Source: Octopus sinensis (Eukaryota). From it: a stretch of 64,000 nt of DNA. Below the pieces are notes generated by a model, which ran no database searches, was not told the origin of the DNA, and saw only the letters and a program-made list of their open reading frames with translations. Below are positions 16,458-16,928 of this stretch, piece by piece. Position numbers and translations under genes: made by a program. Every line of letters starts with the position of its first letter. Position 1 is the first letter of the stretch. The stretch spans positions 147,126,001 through 147,190,000 of the forward strand of contig NC_042998.1 in NCBI RefSeq assembly GCF_006345805.1, written 5' to 3'.

Positions 16458-16518
16458 CGTGTTCTGTCCTCACCTTCGAAACACGCTGGAGTTGAACTAT
16501 GGACAGCTGATGAAGGGG
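16458..16518 (+). ncRNA. reverse-order (non-circularly permuted) hammerhead ribozyme, copy 1
   Basis: cgt GTT ctgtcc tcac cttc GAAAC acg ctggagttgaactat ggacag CTGATGA a gggg. Stem III CGTGT/ACACG, stem I CTGTCC/GGACAG, stem II CTTC/GGGG. Confidence 0.75.
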
Positions 16519-16791
16519 AATTTTCCTTGTGTAGTTTGTCTTGTACTCTGTTTTTTCGTTGTTAAAAAAGGTCCGTTTCCATGTTTTTTTTTACGTTTTC
16601 GTTTCTCGTTGAGTTTTATGTCTATTTGTGGTGTCCTGTACTCACGTATATATATTTATATATGCATGTATATATACATGTAGATGTAGGTACGTACATA
16701 TATGTATGTATGTATGTATGCATATATTTTATTATTACACTATCGTATGAATAAGCGCCCTCGCGTCGTTTCATTTCGTCTCCTCCAAGTA

Positions 16792-16835
<44 letters not shown>

Positions 16836-16867
16836 CATACATACATACATACATACATTCGACGAGT

Positions 16868-16928
16868 CGTGTTCTGTCCTCACCTTCGAAACACGCTGGA
16901 GTTGAACTATGGACAGCTGATGAAGGGG
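16868..16928 (+). ncRNA. reverse-order hammerhead ribozyme, copy 2
   Basis: Identical to 16458-16518. Confidence 0.75.

What the first reader, a model, noticed from the sequence alone, without database searches (positions are those of the whole stretch)
16458..16928. Non-circularly permuted (reverse-order) hammerhead ribozyme, duplicated in tandem
Seen: all three hammerhead core strands are present with matching helices, in the order NUH strand (cgtGTTctgtcc), GAAA strand (cttcGAAACacg), CUGAUGA strand (ggacagCTGATGAagggg). Known: types I-III are circular permutations of CUGAUGA > GAAA > NUH, so this order is none of them and standard descriptors would miss it. As a monomer it must be pseudoknotted: a 4-nt linker joins the distal ends of stems I and II, which lie side by side in the active fold, and a 15-nt linker runs from stem III to stem I. 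Alternatively it could assemble across tandem copies 410 nt apart. From memory, natural non-circular hammerhead permutations have been reported, so novelty for these families and this host needs checking.
Basis: partly seen in the sequence, partly recalled or inferred. Interest (0 to 1): 0.9.

Follow-up and report, generated by a model that had tools for sequence, protein, structure and literature searches.

The report
Four-way-junction hammerhead in Naiad retroelements
This is a clipped copy of a conserved RNA fold, shared by many Penelope-like (Naiad-type) jumping genes thought to lack a ribozyme, that holds a full hammerhead core in an apparently undescribed wiring and is predicted to cut its own transcript, likely as a pair of molecules.

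Summary
Intact copies of this ~740-bp non-coding Penelope-type unit (333 exact core 21-mers) carry an upstream domain. There an upstream strand forms stem II, the strand after CUGAUGA pairs further upstream, and a hairpin sits between them, giving a four-way junction at the A9/10.1 step that Eckert et al. 2023 assumed unbreakable. The wiring recurs with different letters in seven families of this genome and beside Naiad ORFs in 16 of 80 metagenome contigs. Upstream stem II pairs in 80 of 80 cells, adjacent stem II at chance level, with compensatory changes in sequence-only alignments. It lies downstream of 12 of 20 Naiad RT remnants here and would explain the 'half cores' of Naiads, reported to lack canonical hammerheads. 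Short links to a 10-20 bp rod suggest a head-to-tail dimer (inferred). Cleavage is untested; many Naiads lack the motif; the clipped window copies are probably inactive alone. Not found in Rfam or in the papers searched.

The parts
16448..16805 (+). Copy 1: 5'-clipped 3' half of a ~740-bp non-coding Penelope-type unit (family A)
   Evidence: 89% identical to unit positions 1-359 of L026; flanked by (TA)n/(TACA)n
16858..17216 (+). Copy 2: same clip point, likely a local tandem duplication (or assembly duplicate) of copy 1
   Evidence: 4 differences in 359 columns; same 5' breakpoint and flank, shared T at 16500/16910 seen in only one other fetched locus
16448..16453 (+). Remnant of the 5' strand of helix P0 (4 upstream bases lost)
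   Evidence: 10-bp P0 in intact copies
16458..16463 (+). Stem III 5' strand, U16.1 and H17; predicted cut 3' of U16463
   Evidence: sequence; cut site by analogy with hammerheads, untested
16464..16469 (+). Stem I strand next to the cleavage site
   Evidence: pairs with 16501-16506; covaries across families
16473..16481 (+). Stem II 3' strand and GAAA; its true partner (upstream strand b) is missing in this copy
16482..16500 (+). Stem III 3' strand, internal loop and 3' strand of P0
16501..16518 (+). Stem I partner, CUGAUGA core and strand a'; in intact copies a' pairs with upstream strand a, closing the four-way junction
16868..16928 (+). Same core elements in copy 2
   Evidence: identical letters at +410
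24540..24660 (-). Unrelated-letter family D copy with the whole four-way-junction wiring (core at 24561)
32420..32560 (-). Family C copy with the same wiring (core at 32440); first base of strand b mutated in this copy

Best explanation
The two window motifs are 5'-clipped copies of a conserved RNA fold near the 3' end of Penelope-like (Naiad-type) retroelements, in which a complete hammerhead core takes stem II from an upstream strand through a four-way junction, and the intact fold is predicted to cut itself after U16463, likely as a head-to-tail dimer of two copies. Shown by sequence comparison: the strand order a - hairpin H - b - P0 - III - UH - I - short link - b' - GAAA - III' - P0' - I' - CUGAnGA - a', with b:b' as stem II (G10.1-C11.1 kept), a:a' and H closing the junction between A9 and stem II, and P0 joining the far ends of stems I and II. 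Inferred: P0 plus stem III form a rod whose tip loop carries the cleavage site and whose base carries the CUGAnGA half. With 0-2 nt links the tip of one copy docks most easily in the base of another, as when a transcript runs through two pseudo-LTR copies, releasing unit-length RNA. Inferred: the clipped window copies lack a, H and b and are probably inactive alone, though they could be cut in trans. Family A itself is non-coding; its mobilisation by Naiad proteins is inferred.
For: Upstream stem II: 80 of 80 cells Watson-Crick in 20 representatives, permuted partners at most 56 (0 of 2000); adjacent stem II at chance; G10.1-C11.1 in 20 of 20 and a purine before UH in 20 of 20, neither demanded by the descriptor. 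Sequence-only alignments: five Naiad 3' ends, 96.8% of cells paired, 5 of 6 stem II pairs with two-sided changes, 0 of 500 shuffles, slid controls 33-42%; adjacent stem II 10% paired; families A-C of this genome 98.1% paired, 14 pairs with two-sided changes. Junction score against shuffled upstream DNA: 0 of 400 in 5 of 8 own-genome representatives, 5-23 of 400 in the other 3; 0 of 300 in 7 of 13 metagenome ones. Location: sense strand of Naiad ORFs in 16 of 80 contigs, 14 downstream and 2 upstream; the same family has it 3' (L223) and 5' (L224) of the ORF; family F follows 12 of 20 Naiad RT remnants in G000. Element anatomy: fixed 3' end in (TA)n, ragged 5' ends, partial tandems, adjacent inverted copies, as described for PLEs (PMC8557442). 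Geometry: links II-P0 and P0-I of at most 2 nt in 17 and 18 of 19 rows; 0 nt on one strand between P0 and III in 10 of 19. PLE hammerheads are reported to work as dimers (PMC4209133).
Against: No cleavage data. No 3D model was built; the dimer rests on helix-length reasoning, and one-sided bulges of 7-10 nt (5 of 19 rows) could also allow a monomer fold-back. In 3 of 13 metagenome representatives the strict junction score is no better than shuffles (215, 77, 300 of 300) and in 3 more it is marginal (8-17 of 300); these have extra bases at the junction. Stems I and III were required and strand b was picked as best match by my descriptor, so the counts lean towards the model. Helix A does not vary within either alignment; its covariation is seen only across distant families. 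64 of 80 Naiad contigs show no motif, including 7 that look like whole units. No family A-E match was found beside 20 Naiad RT remnants. In one PLE the hammerhead needed protein and was dispensable for insertion in vitro (PMC11167929).
Confidence: 0.55

Rival explanations
1. Same four-way-junction hammerhead, but it folds and cleaves as a monomer: P0 turns back at its junction with stem III and runs alongside the stem II/III stack.
For: P0 is 9-11 bp in 9 of 19 rows and is often followed by a one-sided 7-10 nt bulge. Co-transcriptional order allows folding in cis without threading (inference). Eckert's single SGC transcripts cleaved during transcription.
Against: Junctions as tight as 3x0, 0x4 and 5x0 and stem III of 4-7 bp with varied P0; longer stem III seen by eye in coral Naiad consensus passages. 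A symmetric dimer closes for any lengths, a monomer only for some (inference).
Confidence: 0.27
2. The fold is hammerhead-derived but mainly a protein-binding or reverse-transcription signal of the element, with little or only protein-assisted cleavage.
For: The anole PLE hammerhead did not cleave without protein and was not needed for insertion in vitro; PLE minimal hammerheads cleave weakly; many Naiads lack it.
Against: All catalytic positions, H17 never G, and G10.1-C11.1 are kept across families whose helices share few letters.
Confidence: 0.12
3. One reading: a plain type-SGC monomer with stem II formed by the strand after CUGAUGA, functional as it stands in the window.
For: In families A-C that strand can form 4 pairs (2 G-U) after one extra A; an extra base at this place is known in some hammerheads (as cited).
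Against: 0.0 versus -4.6 kcal/mol for the inactive register; 0 such pairs in all 13 descriptor hits from metagenomes; at least 4 pairs in 0 of 6 family D, 0 of 12 family E and 1 of 13 family F copies; 10% paired.
Confidence: 0.05
4. Chance arrangement of short words in a repeat.
For: CUGAnGA alone is only mildly enriched in the window (36 against 27); the region does not fold better than shuffles (z -0.26).
Confidence: 0.01

Closest known systems
Type-SGC hammerhead (HRIMA-1 motif; Eckert et al. 2023, PMC10085705; read parts 1, 3, 4, 5 of 8 and passages; figures and supplements not seen)
   Same: Order S-G-C, about 3-nt link between stem I and stem II, and an extra helix joining the other sides of stems I and II (P0 here).
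   Different: Their block C is unbroken and stem II follows CUGAnGA directly; here stem II comes from upstream via a four-way junction and P0 is tied to stem III on both strands. [quoted passage not shown]
Type-CSG hammerhead (same paper)
   Same: Same reversed circle of strands; this form is that circle opened at A9/10.1. CSG-order cores were seen by eye in nematode and other Naiad consensus passages.
   Different: CSG keeps CUGAnGA and its stem II strand together at the 5' end; here stem I partner and CUGAnGA lie at the 3' end.
Naiad PLEs with 'HHR_core' / 'HHR_half_core' notes (Craig et al. 2021, PMC8557442; main-text passages, supplement table S1 and passages of the consensus file)
   Same: Same elements, same 3' position, (TA)n bias, tandem and inverted insertions; octopus and squid Naiads are marked HHR_half_core.
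   Different: They concluded that Naiads lack canonical hammerheads and proposed no structure for the half cores.
Minimal type-I PLE hammerheads acting as dimers (Cervera and de la Pena 2014, PMC4209133; passages. Lunse et al. 2017: title only, paper not held)
   Same: Hammerhead in pseudo-LTRs, two copies per transcript, dimer logic.
   Different: Type I order, dimer through a short palindromic stem III; here the swap would go through stems I and II.
Non-LTR retrozymes (bioRxiv 10.64898/2026.07.22.740005; passages, supplements not seen)
   Same: Non-coding tandem units with a hammerhead, non-autonomous partners of PLEs.
   Different: Defined and searched by type I hammerheads only; these units would be missed.

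Membership tests
Hammerhead ribozyme class | Core CUGAnGA, GAAA, UH with H not G | tested here: met
Hammerhead ribozyme class | Stems I and III with covariation | tested here: met
Hammerhead ribozyme class | Stem II closed by R10.1-Y11.1 | tested here: met
   via upstream strand, G-C in 20 of 20; that strand is absent from the two window copies
Hammerhead ribozyme class | Site-specific self-cleavage | not testable with these tools
   only contig-level read data
Hammerhead types I-III (Rfam models) | Circular order C-G-S and an Rfam match | tested here: not met
   order S-G-C; no hammerhead family at gathering score in the window or at E up to 1 in 16 loci
Type SGC (Eckert 2023) | Order S-G-C, short I-II link, interaction helix | tested here: met
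   link 1-6 nt, P0 4-11 bp
Type SGC (Eckert 2023) | Stem II strand directly 3' of CUGAnGA (unbroken block C) | tested here: not met
   chance-level pairing
Naiad PLE | ORF with N-terminal GIY-YIG and C-terminal RT | tested here: not met
   family A units hold no such ORF; met for family F remnants and the metagenome loci
Penelope-like element anatomy | Pseudo-LTR partial tandems, 5' truncation, adjacent inverted copies, (TA)n targets | tested here: met
Non-LTR retrozyme | Non-coding tandem units each with a hammerhead core | tested here: met
   three cores at 737-nt spacing in L025/L026
Non-LTR retrozyme | Type I hammerhead | tested here: not met
Non-LTR retrozyme | Circular RNA intermediate | not testable with these tools
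   no raw RNA reads offered

The most novel reading that the evidence does not exclude
A seventh natural hammerhead wiring: the catalytic core is broken between A9 and stem II by a four-way junction, it works as a domain-swapped dimer that cuts only when a transcript holds both pseudo-LTR copies, and together with CSG forms it is the missing ribozyme of Naiad retroelements across animal phyla, the first non-circularly permuted ribozymes in animal genomes.
Probability: 0.5. Interest if true: 0.92.

Novelty: new variant of a known kind. Interest (0 to 1): 0.86.

Why it matters
It would overturn the assumption that the hammerhead has three unbreakable blocks and six possible orders, place non-circular permutations in animal genomes at thousands of candidate sites (first-look candidates 1984, 743, 2807 and 2956 for four families; lower-quality counts), and answer the stated puzzle that Naiads lack hammerheads. 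It gives a cheap bench test and a new attachment point (hairpin H) for engineered ribozyme switches.

Tried and rejected
Rfam: nothing at gathering score in the window or in 20 Naiad loci without the motif; only microsatellite-type weak hits in 16 loci with it. Nested folding of the window stretch is uninformative for a pseudoknot. Run search: no RNA holder listed; four contig-only runs of uncertain kind were laid and cannot show ends or expression. Neptune-type link rejected: no hammerhead in the first 700 nt after the stop in 16 C-terminal-EN loci; family B units about 1 kb downstream in L075/L076 are read as neighbours in shared (TA)n. Word-index protein search with a Naiad fragment found nothing. 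Two 5' Naiad hits in G000 were fragments without a 3' end. The second table counted one locus twice and was redone; row D picked a wrong strand b and is left out of the geometry counts. A crude twister word search in the 80 Naiad loci gave two hits, both inside ORFs. The quick RT tree needs at least 3 changes of the label and does not exclude one origin (quick method, many 'none' rows are short contigs). Literature searches without a description of this wiring: (open-access library only; Lunse 2017 not held; Eckert supplements and figures not read and could bear on novelty).

Full report
Observation. The motif is present at 16458-16518 and again 410 nt on. Stems I and III are perfect and the order is cleavage-site strand, GAAA strand, CUGAUGA strand, which Eckert et al. 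2023 call type SGC. A descriptor needing only the core and stems I and III finds 4 hits in the window, 1 in 150 shuffled windows. Rfam sees none.

The element. The genome is 2.72 Gb, likely an octopus: a motif from the published octopus Naiad consensus matches 167 times exactly. The finding's family (A) has 333 exact copies of a 21-nt core word. Its unit is about 740 nt, non-coding, with a fixed 3' end in (TA)n, ragged 5' ends, partial tandems and adjacent inverted copies, the pattern described for Penelope-like elements. Both window copies begin at the same base after microsatellite and differ at 4 of 359 columns, so the 410-nt pair is most likely a local duplication of one clipped insertion; an assembly duplicate is not excluded. 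The other 28 loci fetched continue upstream with a conserved domain.

The real fold. In intact copies that domain holds strand a, hairpin H and strand b, abutting. Strand b pairs with the strand before GAAA (stem II); strand a pairs with the strand after CUGAnGA; a further helix P0 joins the far ends of stems I and II and continues into stem III. The result is a four-way junction placed between A9 and position 10.1. In family A strand b happens to equal the letters G8-A9 plus three, which is why the clipped copy mimics a plain SGC.

Covariation. The same wiring with different letters occurs in families A, A2, B, C, D, E and F of this genome, two of them elsewhere in this window. Shuffling the upstream DNA never reached the observed junction score in 5 of 8 representatives and did so 5-23 times of 400 in 3. 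A metagenome scan with a Naiad protein alignment gave 80 loci: 13 passed the descriptor and 3 more were read by eye, all on the ORF's strand, in 11 of 65 sequence clusters; no other hammerhead order passed my threshold in any of the 80. Over 20 representatives upstream stem II is Watson-Crick in 80 of 80 cells, the adjacent version in 13 or 22 (chance 18-21); G10.1-C11.1 is kept in all 20. That count leans on my descriptor, so I also used sequence-only alignments: 96.8% of cells paired and 5 of 6 stem II pairs changed on both sides among five related Naiads, 10% for the adjacent stem II, and 98.1% with 14 two-sided pairs for families A-C. Against: 3 of 13 metagenome representatives are no better than shuffles on the strict junction score and 3 are marginal; helix A is constant inside both alignments.

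Link to Naiads. Family F follows 12 of 20 extended Naiad RT remnants in G000 on the same strand (20 of 52 matches extended; one of the 12 is only a 28-base match). Families A-E were not found beside them; their link is by shared fold and insertion pattern (inferred). Craig et al. 2021 state that Naiads lack canonical hammerheads and flag half cores. In passages of their consensus file I read by eye the four-way form at the ends of three Acropora and two Octopus consensi and four unnamed ones, and plain CSG order in a nematode consensus and three unnamed ones; these readings were not computed. 64 of 80 metagenome loci lack the motif; many end early, but 7 look like whole units, so not all Naiads carry it. 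An earlier scan note of a twister in a clam Naiad (e1-9935298) suggests other ribozymes may fill the slot; I found none here.

Mechanism. Shown: the pairing scheme and its place in the elements. Inferred: self-cleavage after U16463 by ordinary hammerhead chemistry (about 0.8). Inferred: P0 and stem III make a rod with the cleavage strand in its tip loop and CUGAnGA at its base, tied by 0-2 nt links. A head-to-tail dimer closes for any rod length, a monomer needs a U-turn; I put the dimer at about two to one. Two copies per transcript are natural here (L223/L224; L025/L026), and dimer action is reported for other PLE hammerheads. The purpose would be release of unit-length RNA; one study found the PLE hammerhead protein-assisted and dispensable in vitro. 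The clipped window copies are probably inactive alone.

Novelty. Eckert et al. assumed CUGAnGA and its stem II strand cannot be separated and found no SGC or CSG in genomes of known organisms. Nine searches of the open library and three of earlier scan notes found no description of this wiring or of permuted hammerheads in Naiads. It works like a hammerhead and is not a member of types I-III or of SGC as defined. Verdict: new variant of a known kind, high interest, cleavage untested.

Noticed in passing
window 24540-24660 (-) and 32420-32560 (-): Two more families (D, C) of the same four-way-junction motif in this window, each with hundreds to thousands of first-look candidates genome-wide.
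   Followed up: yes
Craig et al. 2021 supplement, Naiad consensus passages: Nematode and some other Naiad 3' ends read by eye as complete type-CSG hammerheads with an interaction helix; CSG was known from two metagenome sequences.
   Followed up: partly
window 16040-16270: Imperfect inverted repeat of about 230 bp between (TA)n runs just upstream of copy 1, MITE-like; seen by eye.
   Followed up: no
window 41525-41815 (+): Remnant of a GIY-YIG endonuclease of a Penelope-like element (tblastn E 4e-10).
   Followed up: no
window 47531-48119: Tandem copies of a ~200-bp dispersed repeat, also in L026; recalled as an octopus SINE, not checked.
   Followed up: no
L062-L074 (G000): Young family with intact ~781-aa RT plus C-terminal GIY-YIG ORF and repeated elements after the stop, no hammerhead core in the first 700 nt.
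   Followed up: partly
L065 6156-6802, L067 7117-7520, L077 1711-1770: Ordinary type I hammerheads with long loop II near other Penelope-like remnants.
   Followed up: no
L214, L221, L226, L227, L234, L245, L246: Apparently whole Naiad units with no hammerhead motif; Rfam found nothing in the five that were scanned. Candidates for another ribozyme class.
   Followed up: partly
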